64,000 bases of DNA, taken from assembly GCA_000004985.1 (NCBI GenBank), contig GG738858.1; one strand, 5' to 3'. This DNA comes from Naegleria gruberi. Its lineage: Eukaryota. The translations under genes were made by a program, and so were the position numbers. Shown one piece after another: positions 14,276 through 61,654 of the stretch. Position 1 is the stretch's first letter. Each line of letters opens with the position of its first letter. The notes under the pieces are model-generated. The model was not told the origin of the DNA. It ran no database searches and worked only from the letters and a program-made list of their open reading frames with translations.

Positions 14276-14348
14276 GCCGACATAGCTCAGTTGGGAGAGC
14301 GTAAGACTGAAGATCTTAAGGTCCCTGGTTCGATCCCTGGTGTCGGCA
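14276..14348 (+). tRNA. tRNA-Phe (anticodon GAA)
   Basis: 73-nt cloverleaf. Acceptor stem GCCGACA/TGTCGGC. D arm GCTC-AGTTGGGA-GAGC. Anticodon stem TAAGA/TCTTA with loop CTGAAGA, giving GAA. T arm CCTGG-TTCGATC-CCTGG with one U51·U63 mismatch. Discriminator A, then a T-run (tttt at 14352..14355) as Pol III terminator. Confidence 0.85.
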
Positions 14349-19009: not shown

Positions 19010-19514
19010 ACTCTACAATTTCTTTTCATGATTATTCTCTTGTTGCTTTTGACCTTTATTCTCATTAAGATTGAACATAATTCCTTGGCAACTTCTAAAA
19101 AACCAAATAAAAGACTACAGCACCACAGGTTCCCAAGTTGTCTCCAACCTCAGTACTGATGTGGCTCGACGATGCTTAACTTCTCAAATCGGACGGGATG
19201 AGGTGCACTCATCGTGATATGGCCGTAGCCATCAATTTACTTAATTTCTGGAATATTAATCATTTCAACCTTACCTTACTGGCTTCTATCACTTTACATC
19301 TCAAACAAAAGTGAAAGCTCATGTACAACATTGATCTTTGCTCCTATGAAAATTAAATGTTTGGGTGTGAGCTTCAAAATATGAAAGTTACATTTACCAA
19401 AAATATAAATAGATAGCAAGTGAGCTAGAGTGAATGAAATTGTCTCTTGTTCAATCAAAAAAAAAGAAACCTACTGCAATGAATACTCTAGCTATTATGA
19501 TTATTGATTTATTG

Positions 19515-21195: not shown

Positions 21196-24100
21196 TTAAT
21201 TAACTAGTCCTATCGGAACATAGCAAACCAAACCATAAATACCTCCATCAGGAGTAGTAGTAGCCCACCAACCATATGTTGGATAAGATCCCATAAAGTA
21301 AGCATAGGTAATACTATCACCAGATGCTGGATAATAACTACTGTACCAATCCTTATAGACAATGGTACTTCCATCGGACCAAGTTGTGAAGGAGCCTTGG
21401 GAAATTTCATGTCCCTTAGTACCTAAGAAGAAGGCATTGGTTTCATTCTTTGGAAGGAGATTGTTGGCTAAGAATGTCTTTTCTGTGGCACTTTGAATTT
21501 GGACCAATGAAGCGTTTGGATGGAAATACTTGCACAAACTACTCATTGATTCAACGGCATAATAGTTTTGAAGTTTGGTAAAGTAATAACATCTTCCCAA
21601 TGATGTACTACAGCTCATCTTTCTATACCATGGATAATCAACCATGTTGACCTTTGGAGGTAGAGTTGAAGGAGCAGTAATGATACCTGATGGACCTGTA
21701 ATTGTTCCTTGAGAATATTGAGAACCACCAGCAAGGCCAAATTTGATAATACCTTCTGGAATGTCTCCTGCAATCTTGAGTGTGTAAATCTTGTAGGAAC
21801 CTGGTGCAATAGTGTATGAGCTAGGCAATGACAAGTAGGTGAAACCAGTGAGTCCAGTAATTTGATCAGCACCAATGTAAACAGGGAAGCTTGGTGAATA
21901 ATCATGGAAGGCATCTTGGTTGTATCCTGCTTGTAATTCGAGAGTGAATCTAGTAAGTGCAGGTGATCCAGTAGCAACACTAATATTGTATGTGAAAACA
22001 GTAACTGGAGAGGAAGCGTTCAAGAATGTGGCAGTAGAAGAGGTCTTACCCAAATATTTAACAGAGTAACCACTGCTAGCTAATGGAACGAGTACATTGG
22101 TCTTGGATGTGTCAACAATATTACATGAGTTATCAATAATGGTTTGGTAAATGTTACTCAAATCGTTCCAATTTACCAAGACAAGATTATTTTGATCATA
22201 GTTCATCTTTTGTACTTGAATTTGACCATAACTATCCGTTACAGCAGAGCCTATTCCGATAGCAAGCTGTCTCCAATTCCAAACTGAGCCATAGAGTGAC
22301 ATTTCAGCATTATTAGAGCCACCAATTGACCAAGAGTTAATATCAACTGATCTAACAGTGGCATCAGAACATGGATTACAACGAGATCTATCATCATACC
22401 ACGAGCAAACAGTACAATCTGCGCCTGGGAAGCGAGGGCTCTTACAATAGGATGGGGAAACACCATAGTTTCCAGGATTTGATGAATAGGTTGATCTACA
22501 GCTACCACAAGAGCATGGGTCATTTGAGAGACCATCAGTAATGTGAATCAATAACTTTTGAGAAATTGACTTTCTACCAGAGGCCAACATCATATTAACT
22601 GCAGTATTAATACCTGAAATTGAGTTGGTACCAGATTGAATTTGGGCCATATTCTTGATGGCAGTTAAAACACTAGATTGACTTGTACCAGACTTCAAAT
22701 CCAAGTGAGTTGTAATAGTTGAGGCAAATTGAATAATACCAATGTTTGTTCCAGTTGGAGAGATGTTTGATCCAAAGCCTGTTGTCAAATTGGAAGCAAA
22801 GTTCTTCATGTTAACAAAGTTATCAGCTGTAATACTTCCAGAACCGTCAATAACAAATATGATATCCAAGTTAAGACCGCATTGACACTTGGTGTATTGA
22901 ACTGAGACAACAGCTGATGCTGAGGTACCATCTTGATCTGATTGGATACTGTAAACAAACTTTTGAGTATTACAACTTCCAGTAACTGGATAAACTCTGA
23001 TAATTCTATTGTTGGCAGGATCGGCTGGGTTGAGGATGGCTGGAGTGCCTGATGTACAATATGAGGAATCACCTGATGGACAAGAAATTCCAGTGAAAGT
23101 GAATGTACCACCAAGAGAATCATAGTCATTGCTCAACAAACTTGATACAGAGATATCAATATAGGTATTGAATTGTGTTGATACAAAGTCATTGACAGCA
23201 ACAGGAGGAGAAGCAAGAGCTGAAATTCCAACTTGAACATTCTTAGTAATTGGATTTCTTGCATCAGAATCAGAAACAGCTAAAACAAAGTTACAACTTC
23301 CAAGGAATGTTGCTACTCTCAAAAACTTGACTTGATTGCTGGCAATTGTCAAGGATTGAAGAACGGTGCTATTACAAGTTCCAACATCTGCAATACTCTT
23401 CAAAACTAGAGTGTCTGCAGTGTCGGCATCCTTTGAAGATGAGAGAGAAATATAATCAAATGAAATATAATTATTACTAGCTCTAGAAATTGAATAGACA
23501 TAAGTGTAAGCATTCAAGGTTGGAGCTTGATTAGGTTGAGCAATAATAATCTTACAAATGGCAGTTTGTCCAGCAGTGTTTGTCAAAGAATAGGAAGCAT
23601 AACAATCACTATTTGATGATGAGGTACTTGCTGGAGTGTATGTCAATTTACCAGTAGAGGATGAGATGGAACCAACACCATTAAGAGTAGCAGTGTTAGT
23701 GATAGCCATTGTGACTGGTTCAGAACCAACCTTTGCTGTTAAACTTGTCTTTAAAGCATCTTCAAATTGAGTAGCAGCAGAATTCTTTGTAGTGGAAATT
23801 GTGTAATCAAGACATCCGAAAGAATTACCAGTGATTGTAACAGTGTAAGTGTAGGTTGAAGTTAATTGACCATCAGTCAAGGTGAAAGAGAATTGCAAAG
23901 TTCCCAAATAAGTAGTAGCATAAGTAAGCTTTACAGATCCATCAGAGTTCAACAAGACAGAGGCACCAGTGTTTTGAGTAATCATACTAACACTTGAAAC
24001 AGTAACTGTATCACCATCAGCATCACTTGCACCTGTCAATAGATCAGTGAAAGTATAAGTTGGATTGGAATAACTTCTTTCAATGGTGGTAGTCTTTGCA

Positions 24101-27100
24101 CTTCCAGTTGGAGGTGTATTTCTAATGACTACAGACATGGTAGCATAAGTTGCAACTTGAGCACCATCATAACAACTAAACTTAATGGAGTCTGTAACAT
24201 ATCGTGTTCCATTAGAAAGAGTGGTTGTGTAAGAAATTGAGGAGCTTGGTGTGTAAACAAGAGATCCAGTAGTGTAATCCGAAACAGTTGTTGTACCATA
24301 TGAACCTTGACCAACTCCAAACAAAGACAATGAATCGCTATCAGCATCATAACAGTATTGAGAAACAACATTTGTCAAAGACAAAGTGTTCTTCCAACCA
24401 ATAGTTTTAGAGAATGAAGTAGCTTGAGGAGCAGTATTGGTAAAAACAAGGTTAACAGTGGCAATATTAGAGGTGGCAATTTGATCAGTAATGGTGTATT
24501 GGAATGAATCAGTACCTGGACCATTAATGAAGGTATTCATATAGAAAACAGTTACCAAATCACTTTGTAAAACAAGGGCGGTATTACCTGTTGGCAATTG
24601 AGCACTACCAAAGTTAACATTATTCAAATTCAAAGAATTAGAACCCAAACTCATGATAACACCATACATGTTAACAACATTGAAGTTAAGTTGACCATAG
24701 GTAAGGACATGTCCATAGAATGTACCTTGAATACCTGCAGCGCCAACAATCCAGAAAACGTTCAAGTAACTAGCACCATTCTTGAAACTCCAACTAAAGT
24801 TAGCATTCAAATTTGTGGTGGCAACAAAGATAAAAAGACCACTTCCACTCAATTCAATTTTACCATTTCCATTGAGACCTTGAGAGAAACAATATACACC
24901 TGGAGTAAATGACAAAACACCTGAAGATGGGAAGTTTTGATCAAGAGAGGCAACACAAGACTTTTGTGAAAGATATTGGTAGAGATTTGAGGCAGATGTA
25001 ACAACAGATGAGTAGGCAGCGTTGTTGACACTCAAAGTACCAGTTGGTTTAAGAGCTTGAGCAGTGAAACCAGCAGTGGCAACGCTTCCAGGAACAACCA
25101 AATTGGCAAAGTTATTACAAATGGTTGAACCCTTAGAAATAACAATGTAATCTCCGATACCATTGTATGAACTGACTAAGCTTGATGGATATAACTTGTT
25201 AATATAAATATAATCACCATCAACATCATAATCGTTCAAAACAGGTTTCAAATACAAGGTATTATTGGTCCAGTGTTGAGTGAATGTATTATCAACAGCA
25301 ACAGGAGGAGTATTAGTAATGGTAATGGTAACAGTATTGGTAACACTTGAGAAACCATCAGTTACAACATAGGTGAATGAAGTAGTGAACCCAGCAGTTA
25401 GAGGAACTGGTGTGTACTTGACAAAAGTGGAATTAACAGAAGCAACAGCACCAGTATTTGGTTGAGTGAATGAAACAATGGTCAATGAATCACCATCAGC
25501 ATCAGTAACTCCAGACATCAAATCAATACTGAGGCCACTTTGAACCTTAGCCCAGTGACGACTGAATGTTAATGGAGTTGCTGTAGGAGCGCTATTGGAA
25601 ATAGTAACAAAGATTCCCTTTGATGCAGAAACTCCCATTCCATCAGTTACAGTATAGTTGAAGAATTGTGATGCAGAGTTTCCATTAGAATTGGTGAATG
25701 TGAATGATTTCTTGTCACCACTCAAAGCAACAGTACCTGCACTTGGATTAGTGAATGATGAAATAACAAGATAGTCTCCATCCTCAGTATCAGCATCAGT
25801 TGGCTTGAGAGAATCAGCTCTACCAATAACTGGAATAGAAATTGAGGAAGTGTGACCAGATACAACAATATCTTTAGCAACTGGAAGATTGTTATAGATA
25901 ACAATGCTGAATGTTGCACTTGAAGTGGACCACCCATCAGTGAATGAAACAGTAACGGAATCAGTACCAGTGTAAGCACTATTGACCTTATAGTTAATGG
26001 TGTTTCCTGAACCAAGAGAAGCAACACCAACCAGTGTCTTTGTGACAGCAGTTAAGGTAACAGCATCACCATCAGCATCCTTAAGATAGGAAGAAAGATC
26101 AATAACAGTATTACTCAAAACAGTTCTCCAGTGATATTTGAAAGCTGCAGTAGTATTGGCTGTTGGAACACTATTCAAAATTGTAATGGAAACAGTACCA
26201 GTGACTGTATCTCTTCCATCAGTGATAATATAACTGATTGGGTTGATACTACCAACAAAACCACTGGAAGGAGTGAATTTTACATTTCCAGAGCAAGTGA
26301 CACTACCTTGAGCTGCAGTAACAGATGAAGAGCATGATTGTAATGATAATGAATCTCCATTAGCATCTGAAGAAGCAGAAACAACTTCAAATGTTAAACC
26401 ATTCTTAGCTGAAGACCAAGAACCGACAAATGATTGTGAATTTGTTGTTGGAGCAGTATTGGTAACAGTAACAGTAACAGTTGATGTTGAAGTGGCAATC
26501 TCATCAGTGATTGTATAGTATACAGTATCTGTAGATGGAGCAGTTCTTGGATAGTAAGTAATGTTGGTTGAGGTAAATGTTGGTGACAAAGGAGCTAATG
26601 AACCATAAACATTAGTAACTCTCAATGGATCAGACTCAGCATCAGTATCGTTAGCAACAACATTCAAAGTGTAAGAAGCAACGTTCCAGTGAGTAGTGAG
26701 CTTATCTGGAACAGCTACTGGGGCAGTATTGTAAACAATCAAGTTGACAGTTGTGGTAACTTGACCGTTTGAAGCACCATCAGTAACAATGTACTTGAAT
26801 GAAAGTGAACCCACAAAGTTTCCAGAACCAAGGATTTTGACAGACTTGCTATCCAAAACAGTTACGGAACCAACACTTGGTTGAGAAGCAATTGAAACCA
26901 AACTCAATGAGTCGCCATCAGTATCATAATCAGCTGGAGCATAATTTAAGATATCAATTTCAATACCTGCCTTGAAAGTTCTCCATGGAACTGAAATAGT
27001 CTTGGTTTGAGAAGTTGGAGCGTTGTTTACAACAGTTACAGAGATTGAACTAGTTGAGCTCTTCATAGAGTCAGAAACTCTGTAGTTAGCAGTGTAAACA

Positions 27101-30100
27101 CCAACAGTGTTGGATGCAGTGAATGTGGCAATATTTGAAGAAACAGACAATGATCCCTTACTTGGTTGAGTATCTGCTGAGAAGGACAAGTTATTGACAT
27201 CCAATGGATCAGCATCAGAAGTGTAACTAGTCAAGTTGAAAGCAACACTTTGTCCGAAATGGACTGTACCTGTAATTGCTTGAGCTGTTGGGGCAGTATC
27301 ATAAACAGTCATGGTGAAGACAATGTAACTATTACCACTGCTTGTGTAATATTTCAATGTAAATTGTTCATTACCCAAATAGGATCCAGAAGGTTTATAG
27401 GTAACAGTCTTCAAATCAGAAGAAACACTTACTATACCCCCGTGGTTTGGATCAGATAATGGTGTTTGATCGAGAGTTGTACCAGTCTCTGAAAGCTTAT
27501 CGAGAGGTAAGAATACATATCCAACACTTGAGTATCTGAAATGAACATTGTAGTATTGTTCAGTACTGGATGGAGAAGTTGATGTAATGTTAATCTTCAA
27601 GTAACCAATTGATGTAGTCAATCCATCACTAATGGTATATGGAACAGTGTCAACACCCAATGACTTGACTAAGCTTGGGTCAGGGAAATAGACAATTTTA
27701 CCGTCAGATGGTTGGGCAGCACCACTGCCAAACATGCTTGAAGAACCTACATTCTCAATCTTCAAATATGGAACATCTTGAATGTCAGAATCAGTTGCTA
27801 AAGAAATAACGTCAATAGTGATACCATATTGAATGTTACCACCAGAGTAGGTCAAGGTAAGATTGGCAGCAACTGGAGCATTATTGTAAGAGTTTGTGGT
27901 CAATGTGGCAGAAGATGACTCAAAACCATCTGAGAGAATAACCTTACAAGCATCACTTGATGCAAATGCACTTCTCAAATATTTAACACCCTTGATTCCA
28001 TTTCCTAAATCAACAAGGGAGCAATAAGAGCTGGAACCAGTGTTGAATGAGAGTGAATAATAATCACCATCAGCATCTGTGAGAGTATTGTAAACAGTGT
28101 AAGAAACTCCATTTGTTTGAACAGTTCTCCAATGAGCAGATGTAGATTGATCACTGATAGATGGCTTATTAGTATTGACAATGTTGACTGTAACAGTGGA
28201 AGCTGAGGAGTAGAGAGCTCCATCATATGCCTTGTAAGTGAATGTCTTGGCTCCAAGGGTTGGTGGATTCTTCAATGTATATCTGAGTAAATTATTTACA
28301 ATGCTTAATGATCCTTCACTAACAGATGATGGGTTAGTAACAGTGAGGGCATCATTATCAGCATCAATATCATTAGACAAGACATTAATATCAACGAATG
28401 AAGTATTCCATTGGACAGTAACAGTATCACTATTTGCAACTGGTGCGTTATCAGTACAGTTGACTGTAACAGTGTTGCTTGCGGTTTCAATACCATCAGT
28501 GATTCTGTAAGTGAAAGAGTAAACTCCAATAGAAGCACTTGATTGTTTGTAAACCAACTTGGATGAAACAACAGAGGCAGATCCTTGTGATGGAGCTGAA
28601 ACAATTGGTGTGGTATCAAATGCCAAACTGTCACCATCAGAGTCCGAACATTCACTCAAAATGTCAATGGAAATACCAGAAACACAAGTGGACCACTTGG
28701 ATACAATATTCTTTGAAACTGCTGTTGGAGCGTAATTTTGAATAGTAACAGGATAGGAGGCAGTCTTACTGATCCAACCATCTGTGTAAGAAATGGTCAA
28801 TTGAGAAGCTCCTAACTTGACAGTTTTTGGAAGATTCCAAACAATAACCTTATCAGAATTAATAGTTGGAGTACCATAAGAGCTGTCATATGCAGAAATT
28901 GAGAAAGATACAGAATCACCATCACTATCGGAAATACTTGAAGAAATATCAATAAGAGATTGATTCTTGGTCCAGTGAATACTTGTTGGGAATGGTGTGG
29001 CAATTGGAGCGGAATTTTGTACATCGATATTCCATTTGGCAACACTATTCAATAAGCCATCAGTAAAAGTAACAGTTACAACACATACACCAGTACTTCC
29101 TGCTGCACTAGTGAAAGTAACAGTGGAGGTGGTGTAGGAAACAGAACCACAACTAGAAGTTGAGGCTCCCTTAACAACAACTGTATCTTCAGAGTCAGAA
29201 TCAGTGACGTTGAACCAAGCAATAGCATTCTTAGTATATCCATTGCTTACATCAGTAAAATGTCTTGTTTCAGAGATATCATTTGAAACTGGAGCGTTAT
29301 CATAAACTATAACATTGACAGTGACAATAGAAAAGCTTGAACCATCAGTGATTTGAACCTTGAATGAATCACTTCCCAAGTATCCAGCATTTTGCTTGTA
29401 AATAACGTTTGGAATTGTAGTAGCATCACCATTTGAGATTGTAATACTACCGTGTGCTGGAGCTTGATCTGGAGTGGTAACAATTGACAATGAATCACCA
29501 TCGTTATCAACAGGTTGAGCAATACTGAAAATGTTAATTACAGAACCAGTGGATTGAGTGCTCCAGTGAACAGTCTTTGAGATGGTCTTATCTTGTGGCT
29601 TGTCATTATTTGTAACAGTAATAGAAACAGAAGCAATATTACTTGTTGAAGGACCATCAGTACAAGTGTATGTAAAGTTTTGAACTCCCAAACCAGAAGA
29701 ACTTGGAGTGAAGGAAACAAATGACTTGGATGAATCCAAAACCAAATTACCAGCAAATCCAGAAGAAGTAGTGAATGATTTGATAGCGATTGGATCAGTG
29801 TCAGCATCAACATCATTGGTAAGGAGATTTAATTGCTTGTTGGAAATTCTCCAATGCATTGTATATGAATCGTCATTGGCAACTGGTGCAGTATTAGTAA
29901 CTTCAACATTGACACTACCAACAGTTGATTTACCATAATCAGAAACAACATAAGTGAATGAATCAGTACCAACAAAGTTATTGGCCTCGATAGAAGTATA
30001 GACCAAACCATCAGTTCCATCACCAAGTGTAACACGAGAGACTGAACCCTTAGAACCTTGAGTGAATGAAGCAATATGGAGTGAATCACCATCAGCATCT

Positions 30101-32550
30101 GTACATGATGTTAATACAGGAATGTTAACAGATGATGAACGCCAATGAGTACGAGCAGTGACATCACCAGCAACTGGAGCAGTATTAGAAACAGAAACAG
30201 TTACAGTGGCAGATGAAACAGAAACATCCATACCATCTGTACAAGTGTAAGTGAAGGTATCATTACCAACGAATCCATTACTTGGAACGTAGAGAATGGA
30301 CTTTCCACCTTGATAAATTGAAACAGTAGCACCATTATTGGAAGTATAGGAAACAGAGTTAACAGTGAGAGAATCACCATTGATATCCTTGTCATTATCG
30401 AGAACATTGATAACAACACTTCTATTCCATGAAACAGTTGCTAAATCATCAACTGGAACAGGAGCATCATTGACAACATGAACAGTGACAACAGCCTTAT
30501 TGGAAACTAATTTTTCAACATCAGCAACATCAAATTCGACATAGTCAACATAAACTGAAGACAAAGCAGTATAATTAGCATAATCATTACCAGGTGTGAA
30601 ACTAATAGACAATCCATACGTGCTTTGAGAAAAACTATTATAAGTAATCTTATCACCATTTGGATCATAACTGTTCAAGATTGGATTAATAGAAGAAGTT
30701 AAACCCTTTGAAACTGTAAAGCTTGAAGCAACAGCAACAGGAGCAGTATTAACAACCTTAATAATTACATATCCAGTACGATTGAATGTGCCTTCAGTGC
30801 TTCCATCGGCATTGGTATTAATGACAATGTATGAAGCAACATCTTCACCTGTGAAATCATGAGCTGGTTCATAAAGGGTATTGTTATCGTCTAGTCTGGT
30901 AATTTTACCTCCATTCAAAGTGGTAGCAGAGACAAAATTAAGCTTCAAGACATCACCAGATTGACTGTAATCATTGCTGATAACATCGACAGTGACTTGT
31001 CCATTCTTTTGACAAGTTGCTGTATCATTGACTGGAATAGGAGGAGAAGGAACTACATTGATAGTAATAGTGGCAAGTACAGAATCAACACCATCACTAA
31101 CTTTGACTTTGAAGGATTCAGAGTAGACAACACCTTGCTCTGGAGTGTAAAGAAGAGTATAGGCATTGCTATTAACTTGATAAAAGTCACCACTTGGATA
31201 GTAAACGCTTTTAACAGAAGTAACAACAGACAAGGAGGAAGAACCACGAGTCAATTTGGTAGTTGGAGTCAACGTAACAGTATCCAAGATATCTTCATCA
31301 GAGAAAGTCAAATCAATGAGATTATTCTTTGAATTCTTTGGAACATCAATAGTCAAATCCTTTGCAGAAGGAGGCAAGTTGACTATTTTGATAAAAACAA
31401 ATGAAGAGCTTGTGAGTGCTCCATCTGTAATAGTGTATTCGAAAGCATCACTGGCAGGAGTTGAAATGAATGGCTTTGGAATATATTGCAAGAAAGCACC
31501 TTGAGCACCAACAAGAACAGTACCAGTAGAACCGAGACCAGTAGAACCTGAAACAATTGTAATATTATCACCATTGATATCATAATCGTTTGACAAGACA
31601 CTCAAAGTTGCCATGGTATTCTTATTAACAGTATAGGAATCTGGCTCAGCAGTTGGGGCATCATTTGCAACAATAATCTTGAGAGTAGCTGTTACATTGG
31701 AATAACCATCTGATACAGTATAGTTAAGCTGCTCTTCATTATTAAAGCCATAAGCAGGAGTATAATAAACAAACAATTCATCAAATGAAATGGAACTTCC
31801 CTCAGAAACAGAACCACCCAATGAAGTAATAAAAAGTGTATCTCCATCTACATCAGAAGTCATTCCTCCATTTTCAGTAACAAAGTTGAAAACATCAAAA
31901 TTATTATTCTTTGAATTCTTATTGACTGTATATTGCAAATCAACAACATCTGGAGCACGATTCAAAACTTGGACATGGATTTTTGCTGTGGCAACAGTCC
32001 ATGAATTGGTGATGGTATATTCTAATGTATCATTTCCTGCAAAACTTCCACTTGATGTGTAAACAATTGTATTCTTGGCAGATAACACAGCTTTACCATG
32101 AGCAGGTTGAGTAATATTGAGAATTGTTAAATTTGAAGATCTAGTATCATAATCATTAGAAAGTGGATAGAAATTTGAAGGCACTTTCTTATAAACTTGA
32201 TAATAATCATCCACAGCAACAGGATTGTAAACTGTTGCATTCAAAGTTACCATCAAGATGGTAGCAACAACACTGGCAACAACAAGACTTGAAATAACAG
32301 CACCTATAACAGTTTGACTAATAGTGCCTCCCTATTGAAGAAGATGAAAGGATTCACAAACATGATATTCGAAACAATGTTAAAAATTACAGAAACATGA
32401 AGAACCATCATGGAACATTATATTTCCATCAATACGCATTAGCAAAGGCTATTCGAAACTAAGTATCCTACAAACCTTCAAGAGGGAAATATTGGCTGTA
32501 AAGCCTGTACGAGACACAGTTGAAGAACCCAACACAGTACCTGCAGGCAT
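21196..32550 (-). CDS. Giant (about 3,711 aa) predicted type II membrane adhesin-like protein. It has an N-terminal cytosolic tail plus signal-anchor TM, about 25-30 tandem cadherin-like/bacterial-Ig-like repeats, an embedded DUF3494 ice-binding-like beta-helix, a VWA domain and a C-terminal C-type lectin domain. Exon 1 is 32476..32550, intron 32332..32475, exon 2 is 21196..32331.
   Basis: An uninterrupted 11 kb ORF. Exon 1 (MPAGTVLGSSTVSRTGFTANISLLK, gtttgt donor) splices to GGTISQTVIGAVISSLVVASVVATILMV (TM) in frame. The repeats follow the pattern VxNxAPVA..D..T.HW…ID(V/I)L.ND.D.DGD.L.I… and end …Y.VTDG…S…V.V.V. The DUF3494-like segment runs PGVYCF…LFIFVATTNL…NGASYLNVFWIVGAAGIQGT…GHVLTYGQL, at about 24560..25160. 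The VWA/MIDAS motif is DIIFVIDGSGSI…HITDGLSND, at about 22480..22900. The CTLD runs CYYF…WSDGS…WY…C at 21196..~21640. Confidence 0.8.
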
Positions 32551-35402: not shown

Positions 35403-35473
35403 GCATTAGTAGTGTAACGGTATCATACCAGCCTTCCAAGCTGGTGACCCGGGTTCGACTCCCGGCTAATGCA
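35403..35473 (+). tRNA. tRNA-Gly (anticodon UCC)
   Basis: 71-nt cloverleaf. Acceptor GCATTAG/CTAATGC. Anticodon arm CCAGC-CTTCCAA-GCTGG, giving TCC. T arm CCCGG-GTTCGAC-TCCCGG, discriminator A. Closely parallels eukaryotic tRNA-Gly-TCC. Confidence 0.85.
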
Positions 35474-54949: not shown

Positions 54950-56536
54950 CTAGTTGTCAGAGTTATGTGCAACTTTTTTGAGATATTTCTCTAGTCGTTT
55001 GGTTTTCTTTTCAGTCATATTGTTCCCAAACAATGATAAATATTCCAGTTTTTTCATTCCTAACAAGTGTTGAATACAATCATCAGTCAGATCATTAGAT
55101 TGTAAGTCTAGATACTTCAAATTTGGCAACCCACTAATCCATTTGATTGCGTTATCGTCTAGACCACAGAAATTCATTTCTAGATAGGTCAAATTGATCA
55201 AATTCTTGTGCCAATATTTAAAACCTTCAACACTTTCAACTAGGTCAGTAAGTGACAAATGAAGACTGGTTAGTTGTTTCATTAAGCCAAGTTGTTTTAG
55301 CACTTCACTACAACAACCAACACATTCTGAAATATCCAATATAGTTAACCTTGGTAATTTTGAAATTGATTTTACCCCTTTAACAGATATTTGTCCACCA
55401 CTAATATTTAGATATGTCAACTCCTTTAAAGAGCTTATTGAGTCTAAAAAATCATCACAAATTTCATTTCCATCAATAAAAAGAGTTGTCAGTTTTGTAA
55501 GAGATGTCAAATATTTTGCTCCACTACTGGTGATTTCATGTTGAGAAATATTTAAATATGTAAGTTGTGTAAGGGAGGCAACTAGTTTAGCTGCCTCATC
55601 ACCAAGTGCATCAATAATTGAATGGTTGCCAATATCAAGTACTCTCAAATTCTTCATAGAGCTAATCCACTTAAGTCCTTCATTTCCAAAATCATTCTTT
55701 GATATATAAAGTTCTGTCAGGTTTATCATTTTAGTAAGGCTTTCGCAGGATTCACTTTCAATCCAAATTCTGTTAATATGGAGGGTTTGCAATGATTCCA
55801 TAGAAGAAATAGGCAGCAAACCTAATGGTCCTAAATCATTATTTCCAATATCTAAAAATGTTAATGATTTTAATCTACTAATAATGTCAGCATCTTCAAA
55901 AGTCAAATTACAGTTATTCACATCCAAACTTGTCAACTTTTTCAAAGAACTTAAATGTTCTACATCTTGGTTCTCCAAATGCACTGATGAAATATTTAAA
56001 CTTGTTAAATTTTCAATCATTCCAATATATTTCACACCATTAGCGCATTTAGTCTTACTAACATTCAATACAGTCAAATGTTTCAAAGATTTCAAACACT
56101 TGACACCTTCCCTGTAACAATTTTGTCCACTCAAATCTAATTCTCGTAAATTATAAAATCGTTTCTGAATAATTGTAAAAATCAAAAGATTATATTTTAA
56201 GTGCAAACATTCTACCCGATCAATATATTTCTGATGACTTTGAGAGAGTTTCTTCCATTCTCTCCTTTCACTAATCCGAAAATTAAATTTAATTCTCGTC
56301 ATAATAATGTCAAACCACTGTCGGCAAACTAGTATACAATTTGTTAGTACTTGAACTGAATCTAAATATGTGATCACCTCAAAAGTCATATCACTGGAGA
56401 GAAAATCAATATTATATTCTAGTTCTTCTTTTGAATCTGAAATGTATTGTTGATCAAGGAGCAATTTTAGATGGTTTTGGTTTTTGATTTTCTTAAGCTT
56501 GGAAATGATGGAATCAAAGGTGCGTTTTCGTTTCAT
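54950..56536 (-). CDS. F-box / ribonuclease-inhibitor-type LRR protein (ATG at 56536; the ORF track starts at an upstream TTG)
   Basis: The F-box-like motif is DMTFEVITYLDSVQVLTNCILVCRQWFDII. It is followed by more than 12 RI-like LRRs (LTSLDVNNCNLTFEDADIISRLKSLTFLDIGNNDLG…). Confidence 0.6.
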   Translation of the reverse strand: MKRKRTFDSIISKLKKIKNQNHLKLLLDQQYISDSKEELEYNIDFLSSDMTFEVITYLDSVQVLTNCILVCRQWFDIIMTRIKFNFRISERREWKKLSQSHQKYIDRVECLHLKYNLLIFTIIQKRFYNLRELDLSGQNCYREGVKCLKSLKHLTVLNVSKTKCANGVKYIGMIENLTSLNISSVHLENQDVEHLSSLKKLTSLDVNNCNLTFEDADIISRLKSLTFLDIGNNDLGPLGLLPISSMESLQTLHINRIWIESESCESLTKMINLTELYISKNDFGNEGLKWISSMKNLRVLDIGNHSIIDALGDEAAKLVASLTQLTYLNISQHEITSSGAKYLTSLTKLTTLFIDGNEICDDFLDSISSLKELTYLNISGGQISVKGVKSISKLPRLTILDISECVGCCSEVLKQLGLMKQLTSLHLSLTDLVESVEGFKYWHKNLINLTYLEMNFCGLDDNAIKWISGLPNLKYLDLQSNDLTDDCIQHLLGMKKLEYLSLFGNNMTEKKTKRLEKYLKKVAHNSDN

Positions 56537-56934
56537 TTTTTTTATTAAGATCAAAAAGATTAAGATGATCTTGAAATTTTTTGAGTAACTTTCTATTGAA
56601 TTGAGGATGCTATTCAAACTAATGACCAATCTCTTAAGTATTGAATTGATCTTGTCAGCTGTGGAAATTTTCTTGAAAATTCATCAAGTTTACAAAAGCT
56701 GTTAATACAATTTCTCTGTCGTTTCTCAATTCTTCATTAAATTCAAGTGCTAAAAATCCATCCCTTTCTGCAATTAGTTTTACAATTATTTTCACTTTCC
56801 AAAAATTCAACGGTATGTCATCTAAATCCTCATCTGAACAGAAAAGTGTTTAATTAAATAGGTATATATAAGCATCTTCTTTACAATTATTCGAATCAAA
56901 ACCCTGGACTCTATCTTCAAACATCAATATAAGA

Positions 56935-57173
56935 ATATGTACTTTTATATACGTCTCTTGGCGAATTGGTATTAGTAGTTACAGTCCCATTTTTTTGGCG
57001 GGTAATTTTTTGGGACAGATACTGAAAGCCCTCGCCTTAATTTTGTATTTTTCATGCTCATAATTATTTCTTTCGCGTCCAATCTGTGACATTCGTTCCA
57101 TACATGGACAAATGTATCAATATCTTGTTCCTGTTTGCATTTGAAAAACAGAGACGTATATAAAAGTACATAT
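56935..57173. mobile_element. Candidate MITE-like element or promoter palindrome. It has 23-bp perfect terminal inverted repeats (56935..56957 atatgtacttttatatacgtctc; 57151..57173 gagacgtatataaaagtacatat) flanking 193 bp.
   Basis: The exact reverse-complement match was read directly from the sequence. It lies in the divergent intergenic region between the F-box/LRR gene (ATG 56536, minus) and the cyclase gene (ATG 57182, plus). The right arm ends 9 bp before that ATG. Confidence 0.4.
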
Positions 57174-57181
57174 CAAAAAAA

Positions 57182-59678
57182 ATGCAAGTTCAACCTGTAC
57201 CAGAAGAATCCGTTAGTTTATTAGAAAGCACACCAAAAAGAAGGAAAGGAGGTTGCATACCTCTACATGCATTTGTCATGATAACAATTTCTGTTTTGAT
57301 TTTGAGTGGTTGTCTTTTAGTTTGGCTTTCGTCTTTCATTGTTTCATCCTATTCGATTCAGAATTTGAATACGAATTTGATAGACGAATCTGCACAAAAG
57401 ATTAGTAGAACACTTGAAGGTTTTTTGAGTCCAGTTGGAAAGGTAATGTTGATGATTCGACTAGTTTATCTTAGTTTCTAACTGTTTATTCGAACAATTA
57501 GATAACGAGAATGATGGCTCGTGACTGGAATAAGGGAGTCGTCACAGTTTCGAATATGAGAGACTATTTACATCCAATCATTGTAGAGTTTGGCTTCACC
57601 TCAGCTGGTTTCTTTTTCAACGATACCTATTCGTATAGATATGCTTTTTCTGTTCAGGGAACTGTTAGTTCATTATTTTGGGGTAAGTTTAACTTTCGTA
57701 CGATTTATTAATGACCTTTCGAATAGTTTATGTAAGACAAGATTATGGTCAAGTAATTTCTTACAGAGATAAAGTCAATATCACCACAGGAGACGTAATC
57801 GTTCCAAACTTTATCAAAGTTGTTCCTCAAGTAGTTAACACTTTCGACTATTGGCTATTTATGGTAAACTATACCAGAGACACTGGAAGCGAAGGCGCAT
57901 TTGGCGATCCTTCTTTTGCAGCTGGTTCTGGATTTGCTCTGACCTACACTCAATGGGTCTATGATCAATTTCTCTGGAAAAACCAAACGAAAAAGAGATT
58001 TATTGGTCTAGCCAAAATCAACCTGTCACTTGACTATATAGTTCAGTATCTTTCGAGTAATATTGATTTGATTGGTGATGGTTATGTGGTTGTTACATTG
58101 AATAGTGGAATTGTAATTGGTGGTTCAATTAATACAACTGTGAATGATGGAACGACAGTTGCGAATATTTTTGACATTGAGACAAGAAAAGCGGGAAAAA
58201 CAATTAAGAAATTTTACGAAATGAATGGAAATACCTTTAAAAACTTTTCGTCGAAAAGTTTGACAGTAGAAAGTGAAGGAGTGAAATATATTGTTTCACC
58301 ATTCAAGTTTAGGTATGAAAATTTGGAGTGGAACATTTTCTTTGTTTTATACGAATCTGATGTCAATGCCCCAATGGTAATGAGTTCTTCCATAAGTGTT
58401 GGAATGACAGTTCTAATTATCATTGTCGGTTTAGTGGCAAGTTTATTGACTGGTTGGTTAGTGGCAAGTCCAATGAGATTCTTAGAGAAACAATTCGAAT
58501 TCATACGAGTCATGAAATTAGAAAATGTCAACATGACAAAATCATCCCCATTCAGAGAATTTCATTCCATTTACGGTAATTTAAATGATACAGTCATGTG
58601 GCTTAATGAAATTAAGGCTTTCATTCCAGAACATGTCTTTGCTCAGCTTAATCAAAGTGAGGAAATTTCACTTCCACCTCCAAAAGAAACCAAAAAGCAT
58701 GCAAAGAAAGAAACCGAATTTGAAGATATGAATGCAAGACAGTCACGTTCAAATTTGGGTTCAAGTCAAGTTTTAAGTTCAGGAAGTGCCGTTAGCCACT
58801 TAGCAAGAAATTCATCATTCAAATCTCCTTCCATTTTCAAGACTGGTTACTTAAAGAAGGGATGTGCCTTTGTACATGTCAAGTTGGAAGGTCTTTCCAA
58901 TAAGGATACTAATTTCATTTCTTCCTTTTTTGAGAAATTCATGTCCTCAGTGGGTCCAATTATTAAGGTACAGCAGGCAAATATTCAGTTTATTACATGT
59001 GATGAATTTGAATTCTCCATTACATCAAAGTATGTGGAGGGCAAACTACTGGAGAAGACAATCGAATGTTGTAATAAGATTGTAAAGACCATTGATCCAA
59101 ATGATAGAATTCAGGCAAGAATTGGAATTTGCTGTGGAATGGCTGAAGTTGGTAATATAGGGACCAAAACAGCAAGATTCTACTCTGTCCATGGTGATGT
59201 TCCAAATTGTGCCCGTTACTATTCTGATCTTGCATGTCAATACAATGTCAATATGATAACAGATGACAAGAATTTACCATTGGACAACTTTATCACAAGA
59301 CCACTTGATAGAATTCAAATTCCTTCAAATGTAGTATTAACTATTTATCAAATAATTGCTAAGAAAAATCAGGAAAATGACGAGTGGCTTTATGAATTGG
59401 AAAATAATAAGCTCAATGACAAGTACAATGAATATTCCAACATATTCAAATTATTCAGTATCAGTGATGATAATTATGATGTAGCTCCTCTCATTAATAG
59501 TGCGAAGGAAATACTGGATCAATACAAACTCAAAGGTTTGGACGAAAGTGATCTTTCCTTTTCCAATTTGAGAAACTTGTTGCATGTATTGAGCCAATCA
59601 CCAAAGCAGGAAGCTCTTTCAATACTACAATCTTATTCGAACACACTTGTGAAGGAAATGAAATCAAATAAATTATAA
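57182..59678 (+). CDS. Receptor-type class III nucleotidyl (adenylyl/guanylyl) cyclase-like membrane protein. Exons 57182..57442, 57502..57682, 57727..59678.
   Basis: An N-terminal TM (FVMITISVLILSGCLLVWLSSFIV), a roughly 300-aa extracellular sensor-like region, and a second TM (VGMTVLIIIVGLVASLLTGWLV). The C-terminal catalytic-domain motifs are CAFVHVKLEGLS… and RIGICCGMAEVGNIGTKTARFYSVHGDVPNCARYYSDLA, against the consensus [RK]IGIHTG.V.AGVVG…Y…GD.VN.ASR.ES. The frame is kept across the gtaatg and gtaagt introns. Confidence 0.5.
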
Positions 59679-59788
59679 ATAATACACATTCAATAAAACC
59701 ATTTCTCTTCTTTTTTCAATATCTCTGATTCAATCATGTTGTATTACAAAATCAAATACAAAGTGGATTTTACAAAGTCCTAAAAAAA

Positions 59789-61654
59789 ATGAAAAGAAAG
59801 CAATTCGATGATGAGAAACTACCCACCAGCAAGAAATTAAAAGAATGCCCACAAATAACAAGCAGTGCTGTTTCTTGTGTACTTGATGAAAGTTTCGGAT
59901 CAAATTTTCTCCACATTAAATTTACTTTAACCAGAAAATCAATAATCAAGTGGAAAACAAATATTCCCTCTGATTTTATTCCTATTGAATATTATTTTGA
60001 TAAAGAATTTGTTATGGAGGTGGTAAAGAAGGATGGATATGAACTCAGGTGTGCTTCACATGAATTGACAAATGACAGACAAGTTGTTTTGGAGGCAGTC
60101 AAGAATAATGTAAATGCTATTTGGTTTGCATCTGCAAATTTGAAAAATGACAAGGAGTTTATAAAACTTGTGCTGGAAAAAGAAATTAATCATGAGGAAT
60201 TCATATATGGATCAGTACTCGCTTGTTTGTCGAATGAATTAAGAAATGACAGAGAAATTGTTTTACAAGCAGTAAAACAACATGCGTTTGCATTGGAATT
60301 TGCCTCACGAACATTACAGAATGATTACAATCTTGTTTTGAAAGCAGTTCAACTCCATGGAAGTTCACTCACAAAAGCTTCTTTAGAGTTGAAAAACAAC
60401 AGAACAATAGTATTGGAAGCAATCAAAAGAAATGGATCAGCATTCAGATATGCCTCAAAGAAATTGAGAAATGACAGACAAGTTATTTTGGAGGCAATCA
60501 AGACCTATGATCAAACACTTTACTTTACCTCAGAAGAACTGCAGAATAATAAGGAATTTATTTTAGAAGCAGTGAAAATGAATGGCTGGATACTTAAATG
60601 TACATCAAGTGAATTGAAAAATGATGAGGAAGTTGTATTGGAAGCAGTAAGACGAAACAGACAATCACTAAAGTTTGCTTCTGGAAAATTGCAGCAAGAT
60701 ACTGATTTCGTTTTGAAAGCTATTACGCAAAATACAGAGGCACACCAACTTGACTTGGACGGTGATGCAATAATTATTGAACGACAGCATATTTTGGATG
60801 CTATTAAGAAACAAGACGGAACTGTTATTCAAACAATACCAAGTCCATTTCAAAACGACAAGGAAATTGTAATGGAAGCAGTTAAACAAAATGGGTTAGC
60901 GCTAAAATATGCCTCACATGAGCTTCAGAATGATACTGAAATAGTTTTGGAAGCTGTTAAAAGAAATAATTATGCTCTCAAATATGCCTCAATGGAATTG
61001 AGAAATAACAAACAAGTTGTCTTGGAAGCAGTTAAAAGTCACTCAAACGCGCTCAAATATGCCTCAGAAGAGCTGCAGAATGATAAGGAAATAGTTCTAG
61101 AAGCAGTTAAACAAAGTGGATATACACTCAAATATGCCTCCACCGAACTACAACACGATAAGGAATTAGTTTTAATAGCGATTCAACAGTATGGAATTAT
61201 TTGCCCAGAGGAGTTTAGTAATGATAGGGAATTTCTTTTGCAAGCTGCTAAACCAAATGGACGTTCTGTAATGGAATTTGTTTCGAATGAATTAAGAAAA
61301 GATCAACAATTTATTTTGGAGCTGGTTAAACGAAATGTATTAGAAACTCATTATCTTCCAAATGAATTTAGACATGACATGAAACTTATGTCTGAGATAG
61401 TTAGACACAATGGAGTAGCATTGAAATACAGTTCAGAAGAATTGACAATTGAAGAAAAATATATTTTGGAAGAAGAAGCAATTTTACAAAATGGATTTTG
61501 TTTGGATTTTAGTTTTGAAAAATTTTGTAAAAGGATCACACGAGAATATCCTGAATTATACTTGCCAAATTACAAGTTTAAACATTTGGGTGTTGATTTT
61601 CATGTATTGAATGCGCCATTTAGCGTTCCTAATGTAGCAAAGTTGTTCTATTAG
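59789..61654 (+). CDS. DUF4116-repeat protein (at least 13 tandem ~30-aa repeats)
   Basis: Repeats of the form EIVLEAVKQNGYALKYASEELQNDKE recur throughout, which is the DUF4116 pattern. Single exon, ATG at 59789. Confidence 0.55.
   Translation: MKRKQFDDEKLPTSKKLKECPQITSSAVSCVLDESFGSNFLHIKFTLTRKSIIKWKTNIPSDFIPIEYYFDKEFVMEVVKKDGYELRCASHELTNDRQVVLEAVKNNVNAIWFASANLKNDKEFIKLVLEKEINHEEFIYGSVLACLSNELRNDREIVLQAVKQHAFALEFASRTLQNDYNLVLKAVQLHGSSLTKASLELKNNRTIVLEAIKRNGSAFRYASKKLRNDRQVILEAIKTYDQTLYFTSEELQNNKEFILEAVKMNGWILKCTSSELKNDEEVVLEAVRRNRQSLKFASGKLQQDTDFVLKAITQNTEAHQLDLDGDAIIIERQHILDAIKKQDGTVIQTIPSPFQNDKEIVMEAVKQNGLALKYASHELQNDTEIVLEAVKRNNYALKYASMELRNNKQVVLEAVKSHSNALKYASEELQNDKEIVLEAVKQSGYTLKYASTELQHDKELVLIAIQQYGIICPEEFSNDREFLLQAAKPNGRSVMEFVSNELRKDQQFILELVKRNVLETHYLPNEFRHDMKLMSEIVRHNGVALKYSSEELTIEEKYILEEEAILQNGFCLDFSFEKFCKRITREYPELYLPNYKFKHLGVDFHVLNAPFSVPNVAKLFY

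What the first reader, a model, noticed from the sequence alone, without database searches (positions are those of the whole stretch)
56935..57173. 23-bp perfect inverted repeats flanking 193 bp in a divergent promoter. MITE candidate.
The arms atatgtacttttatatacgtctc and gagacgtatataaaagtacatat are exact reverse complements. The structure (short TIRs, ~240 bp total, AT-rich, no ORF) is typical of a miniature inverted-repeat transposable element. Alternatively it is a large regulatory palindrome controlling the divergently transcribed F-box/LRR and cyclase genes. The right arm ends 9 bp before the cyclase ATG.
Basis: seen in the sequence. Interest (0 to 1): 0.5.

Follow-up and report, generated by a model that had tools for sequence, protein, structure and literature searches.

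The report
Perfect inverted repeat at Naegleria promoter
A 239-bp stretch bounded by two perfect 24-bp inverted copies lies just upstream of a cyclase-like gene in Naegleria gruberi; it looks like a small transposon remnant whose ends carry TATA boxes, but whether it is mobile could not be tested because the rest of the genome was out of reach.

Summary
The arms at 56935-56958 and 57150-57173 are 24 nt long (one more than reported), 100% complementary and 191 nt apart. About 7e-6 such pairs are expected by chance in this window. The window is Naegleria gruberi nuclear DNA. The unit lies in the 645-bp gap between a minus-strand LRR/F-box-like gene and a plus-strand cyclase-like gene, and ends 8 nt before the cyclase ATG.

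Three things are new. The repeat has sharp edges on both sides. The only possible target-site duplications are palindromic (TA or ATAT) and cannot be told apart from the arm tips. Each arm, read outward, carries a canonical TATA box (TATATAAAAG), an 8-mer core found nowhere else in the 64 kb. In the right arm it sits 25 nt before the cyclase ATG. An unannotated DUF4116 gene relic lies between the left arm and the LRR gene.

No second copy exists in the window, and none of the sequence collections I could reach holds the N. gruberi genome. The defining MITE test, copy number, therefore stays open.

- Best reading (0.45): a young MITE-like insertion that now supplies the cyclase core promoter.
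- Main rival (0.3): a local, non-mobile inverted duplication.

Interest is modest.

The parts
56935..56958 (+). Left arm of the inverted repeat (ATATGTACTTTTATATACGTCTCT)
56959..57149 (.). 191-nt interior. It is 36% GC. Its two halves are not complementary to each other. It has no Rfam match, no significant fold and no significant ORF.
57150..57173 (+). Right arm of the inverted repeat (AGAGACGTATATAAAAGTACATAT)
57157..57166 (+). Outward-facing canonical TATA box TATATAAAAG in the right arm, starting 25 nt before the cyclase ATG. It is the only perfect TATAWAWR match upstream of any A-run ATG in the window.
56942..56951 (-). The same TATATAAAAG in the left arm, facing outward on the minus strand towards the DUF4116 relic and the LRR gene
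56935..56938 (.). Left candidate target-site duplication: ATAT, or TA at 56936-56937. It is palindromic, so it cannot be told apart from the arm tip.
57170..57173 (.). Right candidate target-site duplication: ATAT, or TA at 57171-57172
57174..57184 (+). caaaaaaaATG: the A-run start context typical of N. gruberi genes in this window, followed by the cyclase start codon
57182..57442 (+). Exon 1 of the cyclase-like gene (87 codons, MQVQPVPEES...SPVGK), matching annotated protein P0001
56655..56810 (-). Unannotated DUF4116 relic ORF between the left arm and the LRR gene. A possible upstream exon starts at an ATG at 56924, with an intron at 56834-56884, but that ATG lacks the A-run context.
54950..56536 (-). 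LRR / weak F-box-like gene (P0005, 528 aa, single exon), the divergent annotated neighbour

Best explanation
The unit is most likely a single, young, non-autonomous DNA-transposon copy (MITE-like). It is 231-239 bp long with 20-24-bp perfect terminal inverted repeats, and it inserted into a TA or ATAT target in the AT-rich core-promoter region, 8 nt upstream of the start codon of a Naegleria gruberi cyclase-like gene. Each terminal repeat carries a canonical TATA box that points out of the element. The right-hand box therefore sits 25 nt before the cyclase ATG, next to the A-run that precedes N. gruberi start codons. I infer that it now serves as, or replaced, that gene's core promoter. With the unit removed, the junction reads ...caatataaga(atat)caaaaaaaATG, which would itself hold a one-mismatch TATA-like element at about -20. 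What is shown: the repeat, its sharp edges, the non-coding interior, the position relative to both genes, and the uniqueness of the TATA motif in the window. What is inferred: mobility, the target-site duplication, and promoter use.
For: The arms are perfect 24-nt copies, far beyond chance. Similarity stops abruptly at both the inner and outer ends of the arms: the interior halves and the outer flanks align no better than shuffles. That pattern fits transposon termini rather than a decayed long palindrome. At 239 bp, the unit has no significant ORF, no Rfam family, no significant RNA fold in the interior, and no similarity to any other part of the window. Its interior GC (36%) is higher than the surrounding intergenic DNA (29-30%), as expected for foreign sequence. 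TA or ATAT duplications fit the ends. The location next to a gene start is typical for MITEs (general knowledge). TATAAAAG occurs nowhere else on either strand of the 64 kb. The cyclase is the only gene in the window with a perfect TATAWAWR upstream, at -25. So the arm is not a generic promoter word of this genome.
Against: There is no second copy of the arm or the unit in 64 kb. No non-palindromic target-site duplication exists. No transposase gene lies nearby. Published transposable-element content of Naegleria genomes is very low: 0.28% for N. gruberi in bioRxiv 10.64898/2026.06.24.734286, and 0.68% DNA transposons in N. lovaniensis in PMC6125883. As far as I recall, the arm tips (TGTAC.. 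or GTAC..) do not match the hallmark termini of the common superfamilies; this was not tested. Copy number in the genome, the defining criterion, could not be measured.
Confidence: 0.45

Rival explanations
1. The repeat is a local, non-mobile inverted duplication. A replication or repair template switch copied 24 nt of one strand into the other about 215 bp away, making a single-copy inverted repeat with no target-site duplication. One arm would be the original core promoter, most plausibly the right one (TATA box at -25 from the cyclase ATG). The other would be its inverted copy, which may or may not fire towards the DUF4116 relic and the LRR gene.
For: It is single-copy in all the sequence available. 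No demonstrable target-site duplication exists. The identity is perfect and the edges are sharp, as expected from a recent copying event. The TATA box in the right arm lies at a sensible distance from a start codon that carries the usual A-run context. Naegleria genomes are poor in transposable elements.
Against: As far as I recall from the literature (not checked here), template-switch copies are usually much closer together than about 200 bp. The interior is richer in GC than the neighbouring intergenic DNA, which suggests the whole 239 bp, not just one arm, is a distinct block. The ends are compatible with a TA or ATAT duplication.
Confidence: 0.3
2. The repeat is a selectively maintained regulatory palindrome: paired, mirror-image core promoters or factor-binding sites that coordinate the divergent genes. 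Whatever its origin, selection or conversion between the arms keeps them identical.
For: Both arms present TATATAAAAG facing outward. An ATG follows each arm at nearly the same distance, 8 nt on the right and 10 nt on the left. The left ATG can be spliced in frame to a DUF4116-like ORF that reaches the Pfam cutoff. The whole unit forms a strong DNA hairpin, z = -4.4, owing entirely to the arms.
Against: No known promoter or factor site needs 24 of 24 identical bases. The left ATG lacks the A-run found at real N. gruberi starts. The relic is not an annotated gene. The annotated LRR gene starts 399 bp away and has its own upstream A-run context. Other divergent or A-run promoters in the window show nothing similar.
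Confidence: 0.15
3. The interior encodes a small RNA or a micro-exon, and the arms are its flanking promoter and terminator signals.
For: There is a U-rich, Sm-site-like stretch (AAUUUUUUGG) inside a GUCCCA/UGGGAC stem on the plus strand. A 66-codon open frame runs on the minus strand.
Against: No Rfam family matches even at E <= 10. The fold z-scores are -0.4 and -1.2. The open frame is not significant, P = 0.13. Its only database hits are two borderline matches to tandem-repeat proteins.
Confidence: 0.05

Closest known systems
[quoted passage not shown]
   Same: Total size is about 240 bp. The terminal inverted repeats are perfect and 20-24 bp long. There is no coding capacity. The ends are compatible with a TA (or 4-bp ATAT) duplication. 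The unit sits immediately upstream of a gene.
   Different: Only one copy has been seen. No related autonomous element is known. The duplication cannot be separated from the palindromic arm tips. As far as I recall, the termini do not resemble the canonical Tc1/mariner, piggyBac, PIF/Harbinger, hAT or CACTA ends.
Transposon-donated promoters (outward-reading promoters in the terminal repeats of IS elements and some MITEs)
   Same: A canonical TATA box in each terminal repeat points out of the element. One of them lies at a plausible distance from the adjacent start codon.
   Different: There is no transcript data. The effect on the cyclase gene is inferred only from geometry.
Template-switch (quasi-palindrome) mutations that create short perfect inverted repeats
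   Same: A perfect inverted copy with sharp edges, single-copy, with no target-site duplication.
   Different: The arm separation (191 nt) and arm length (24 nt) are at the large end of what is usually described, as far as I recall.
Bidirectional promoters with two opposed TATA boxes (for example the yeast GAL1-GAL10 type)
   Same: Two outward-facing TATA boxes lie in a divergent intergenic region.
   Different: Known examples do not have 24-bp identical arms. Here the left-hand target is an unannotated gene relic, not the annotated divergent gene.

Membership tests
MITE / non-autonomous TIR DNA transposon | Terminal inverted repeats at both ends | tested here: met
   24 of 24 nt are complementary, and similarity ends sharply on both sides
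MITE / non-autonomous TIR DNA transposon | Small size (under about 800 bp) and no coding capacity | tested here: met
   239 bp. The longest open frame is 66 codons, P = 0.13. There are no meaningful protein or Rfam hits
MITE / non-autonomous TIR DNA transposon | Target-site duplication flanking the terminal repeats | tested here: inconclusive
   No direct repeat of 2-10 bp lies outside the 24-nt arms. Only palindromic TA or ATAT inside the arm tips is possible, and it cannot be separated from the repeat itself
MITE / non-autonomous TIR DNA transposon | Multiple dispersed copies in the genome | not testable with these tools
   There are no further copies in the 64-kb window. The N. gruberi genome is absent from the searchable collections. 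The metagenome scan gave one unrelated chance 20-mer hit. The viral and prokaryote scans gave none
MITE / non-autonomous TIR DNA transposon | Presence/absence polymorphism, or an empty site in a relative | not testable with these tools
   No orthologous locus was obtainable. The only related contig (L001) carries a 36%-identical paralogue and has no such repeat
MITE / non-autonomous TIR DNA transposon | An autonomous partner with matching terminal repeats | not tested
   No transposase gene was found among the ORFs scanned near the locus. No repeat library was available
TATA-box core promoter | Match to TATAWAWR | tested here: met
   TATATAAAAG is present in both arms, facing outward. It is the only perfect match upstream of an A-run ATG in the window
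TATA-box core promoter | Position about 25-35 nt upstream of a mapped transcription start | not testable with these tools
   No transcript 5' ends are available. The box starts 25 nt before the cyclase ATG, which would imply a 5' UTR of near-zero length if the canonical spacing holds
Known structured RNA (Rfam) | Covariance-model match at or near the gathering score | tested here: not met
   Nothing in the unit at E <= 10 apart from a 13-bit match to the group I intron model, which I regard as noise

The most novel reading that the evidence does not exclude
The unit belongs to an undescribed MITE family of Naegleria (Heterolobosea) whose terminal repeats are portable, outward-firing TATA-box promoters. 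Each insertion would then deliver a ready-made bidirectional core promoter to the flanking genes, in a genome where canonical TATA boxes are otherwise rare.
Probability: 0.15. Interest if true: 0.5.

Novelty: new member of a known kind. Interest (0 to 1): 0.27.

Why it matters
If the unit is mobile, it would be a concrete example of a transposon rewiring a gene's core promoter in Naegleria, a genus with very few transposable elements and almost no promoter biology on record. It would also give a short, defined TATA-containing sequence to test as a promoter in an organism where genetic tools are scarce. If it is only a local inverted duplication, it is a minor curiosity of one intergenic region.

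Tried and rejected
- **Chance:** rejected.
- **Known RNA gene in the interior:** I suspected an snRNA because of an Sm-like AAUUUUUUGG. There is no Rfam hit and no significant fold.
- **Coding remnant:** the 66-codon minus-strand frame is not significant. An exhaustive HMMER search of 1.84 billion representatives gave only two borderline hits (E = 3e-4 and 8e-4) to proteins made of tandem repeats; I regard these as noise.
- **A longer, degenerate palindrome or subterminal repeats:** none found. An 8-nt direct repeat ATCAATAT (56923 and 57116) is within chance expectation for a region this size, by my own rough estimate of about 2 such pairs.
- **Generic N. gruberi promoter word:** rejected. 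The arm's k-mers, and even TATAAAAG alone, occur nowhere else in the window.
- **More N. gruberi DNA or orthologous loci:** five exact-protein look-ups found nothing on record. The one related contig, L001, holds a distant paralogue without any such repeat.
- **Pattern scans:** the metagenome scan gave one unrelated hit, L002. The viral scan and the prokaryote genome scan gave none.
- **Literature:** six full-text searches turned up no description of Naegleria MITEs or core promoters, only overall transposable-element percentages.
- **Unused resource:** I did not use the last word-indexed protein search. A negative result was expected under every hypothesis.

Full report
**Observation**

The inverted repeat is real. 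The repeat finder reports arms at 56935-56958 (ATATGTACTTTTATATACGTCTCT) and 57150-57173 (AGAGACGTATATAAAAGTACATAT). They are 24 nt long, 100% complementary and 191 nt apart (sequence read).

A search allowing three mismatches finds only these two sites in the 64 kb, and none in 100 shuffles. From the base composition, about 7e-6 perfect 24-nt inverted pairs within 3 kb are expected in a window of this size. It is the only high-identity inverted repeat of 18 nt or more in the window.

**Organism and gene context**

The long ORF downstream is 100% identical to a 797-aa 'predicted protein [Naegleria gruberi]' on a 782-kb scaffold (P0001). Its N-terminus, MQVQPVPEES, fixes the start codon at 57182 and exon 1 at 57182-57442. 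A 47%-identical paralogue begins MKVSPE, which supports that start.

The protein has only a weak, partial match to the adenylate/guanylate cyclase catalytic domain: 20.5 bits against a cutoff of 21.9. 'Cyclase-like' is therefore the accurate label.

The divergent annotated neighbour is a 528-aa leucine-rich-repeat protein with a weak F-box-like match (P0005). It is a single exon on the minus strand with its ATG at 56536.

The 645-bp gap, however, is not empty. A minus-strand ORF at 56655-56810 is a DUF4116 fragment. It matches the first repeat of the DUF4116 gene at 59789-61654 by tblastx with E = 5e-5, and reaches the Pfam cutoff at 25.5 bits against 24.9. It is not an annotated protein. The unit is thus adjacent only to the cyclase start, and the LRR ATG lies 399 bp from the left arm. 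The neighbouring genes I scanned are ordinary housekeeping genes and include no transposase.

**Anatomy of the unit**

- **Edges.** Similarity stops abruptly at both ends of the arms. The two halves of the interior, and the two outer flanks, align no better than shuffled sequence.
- **Interior.** It has no Rfam match at E <= 10 and no significant fold on either strand, with z = -0.4 and -1.2. It has no similarity to anything else in the window at DNA or six-frame level.
- **Open frame.** A 66-codon open frame on the minus strand occurs in 13% of random sequences of this composition. It finds only two borderline, repeat-driven hits among 1.84 billion representative proteins.
- **Composition.** The interior is 36% GC, against 29-30% for the flanking intergenic DNA.
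- **Target-site duplication.** No direct repeat of 2-10 bp flanks the 24-nt arms. The only duplications that fit are palindromic and lie inside the arm tips: TA (element 56938-57170) or ATAT (element 56939-57169). They cannot be told apart from the repeat itself.

Read outward, each arm is AGAGACGTATATAAAAGTACATAT, which contains a canonical TATA box, TATATAAAAG. TATAAAAG occurs nowhere else on either strand of the 64 kb, and TATATAAA occurs only twice. A simple composition-based estimate of mine would predict roughly 10-20 occurrences of such words.

N. gruberi start codons in this window are typically preceded by a run of A (aaaaaaaATG). The cyclase ATG has that context immediately after the right arm.

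Among 20 A-run ATGs that open ORFs of at least 80 codons, the cyclase is the only one with a perfect TATAWAWR upstream, and it starts at -25. Three others have one-mismatch matches between -22 and -31.

On the other side, an ATG at 56924 follows the left arm by 10 nt. It can be spliced in frame to the DUF4116 relic through a 51-nt GTAAAG...TTCAG intron. That ATG lacks the A-run, and the model is unannotated.

**Interpretation**

A perfect, sharp-edged 24-bp inverted repeat enclosing unrelated, non-coding DNA needs a specific mechanism. The two realistic ones are these:

- **(a) A non-autonomous DNA transposon with terminal inverted repeats (MITE-like).** It would have inserted into a TA or ATAT site.
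- **(b) A local inverted copy made by template switching during replication or repair.**

I favour (a) at 0.45 for three reasons: the whole 239 bp behaves as a compositionally distinct block, the ends fit a TA or ATAT duplication, and the position next to a gene start is typical of such elements. With the unit removed, the junction reads ...caatataaga(atat)caaaaaaaATG. That sequence would itself contain a one-mismatch TATA-like word about 20 nt from the ATG, which is a plausible original promoter and a plausible AT-rich target.

Under (a) or (b), the right arm now occupies the position where the cyclase core promoter must be. I infer that its TATA box drives, or at least conditions, transcription of that gene. 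If canonical TATA-to-start spacing applies, the 5' UTR would be near zero in length. That is a point against simple canonical use, and it needs 5'-end mapping.

Against (a):
- There is no second copy in the window.
- There is no separable target-site duplication.
- Published transposable-element content is very low: 0.28% for N. gruberi in bioRxiv 10.64898/2026.06.24.734286, and 0.68% DNA transposons in N. lovaniensis in PMC6125883.

Explanation (b) gets 0.3. A selectively maintained regulatory palindrome gets 0.15. A hidden RNA gene or exon gets 0.05.

**What could not be done**

The decisive test is copy number in the N. gruberi genome, together with an empty site in a relative. None of the collections I could search holds this genome.

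- Five exact-protein look-ups found nothing on record.
- The single related contig, L001, carries a 36%-identical paralogue with no comparable repeat.
- A metagenome scan with a 20-mer of the arm gave one unrelated hit. The viral and prokaryote scans gave none.
- Full-text literature searches found no description of Naegleria MITEs or core promoters.

**Comparison with known kinds, and verdict**

The unit works like, and structurally resembles, a TA-duplicating (Stowaway/Tc1-mariner-type) or 4-bp-duplicating MITE. It meets the terminal-repeat and size/non-coding criteria. The target-site-duplication criterion is inconclusive. The copy-number, polymorphism and autonomous-partner criteria are untested. 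It should therefore be called a MITE candidate, not a MITE.

The outward TATA boxes resemble transposon-donated promoters. If mobility is confirmed, this would be a new member of a known kind, with modest added interest because Naegleria promoter architecture is essentially undescribed. If the unit is single-copy, it is a local curiosity. Overall interest is 0.27.

Noticed in passing
window 56655-56810 (-), possibly extending to 56924: An unannotated DUF4116 gene relic lies between the LRR gene and the inverted repeat. It resembles the first repeat of the 14-repeat DUF4116 gene at 59789-61654 (tblastx E = 5e-5; Pfam 25.5 bits). No N. gruberi protein model covers it.
   Followed up: partly
window-wide; for example 57174-57184, 56537-56546 (-), 59780-59791: Start codons of N. 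gruberi genes in this window are preceded by a run of about 5-8 A (aaaaaaaATG). This is a useful rule for choosing true starts. The ATG at 56924 (-) lacks it.
   Followed up: partly
whole window, both strands: Canonical TATA words are strongly depleted. TATAAAAG occurs 0 times and TATATAAA 2 times outside the two arms, where composition alone would predict roughly 10-20 by my estimate. Most promoters here therefore appear to lack a TATA box.
   Followed up: partly
window 19112-19230 (-): A 5S rRNA gene (Rfam 103 bits) sits alone among protein-coding genes.
   Followed up: no
window 14276-14348 (+) and 35403-35473 (+): tRNA-Phe(GAA) and tRNA-Gly(TCC) genes.
   Followed up: no
window 21196-32256 (-): A single uninterrupted ORF of 3686 codons, which I did not characterise.
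   Followed up: no
window 57182-59678 (+), protein P0001: The 'cyclase' has only a weak, partial match to the adenylate/guanylate cyclase catalytic domain: profile positions 94-180 of 183, 20.5 bits, below the 21.9 cutoff. It belongs to a small N. gruberi paralogue family (P0002, P0003) and may be a degenerate or highly divergent cyclase.
   Followed up: partly
window 56975-57172 (-): The 66-aa conceptual translation gives borderline matches (E = 3e-4) to 37-residue tandem repeats (W.DCH...EVLTWLS..QLHRG.DVTV) in two uncharacterised proteins, P0007 and P0008. I judged these to be noise.
   Followed up: partly
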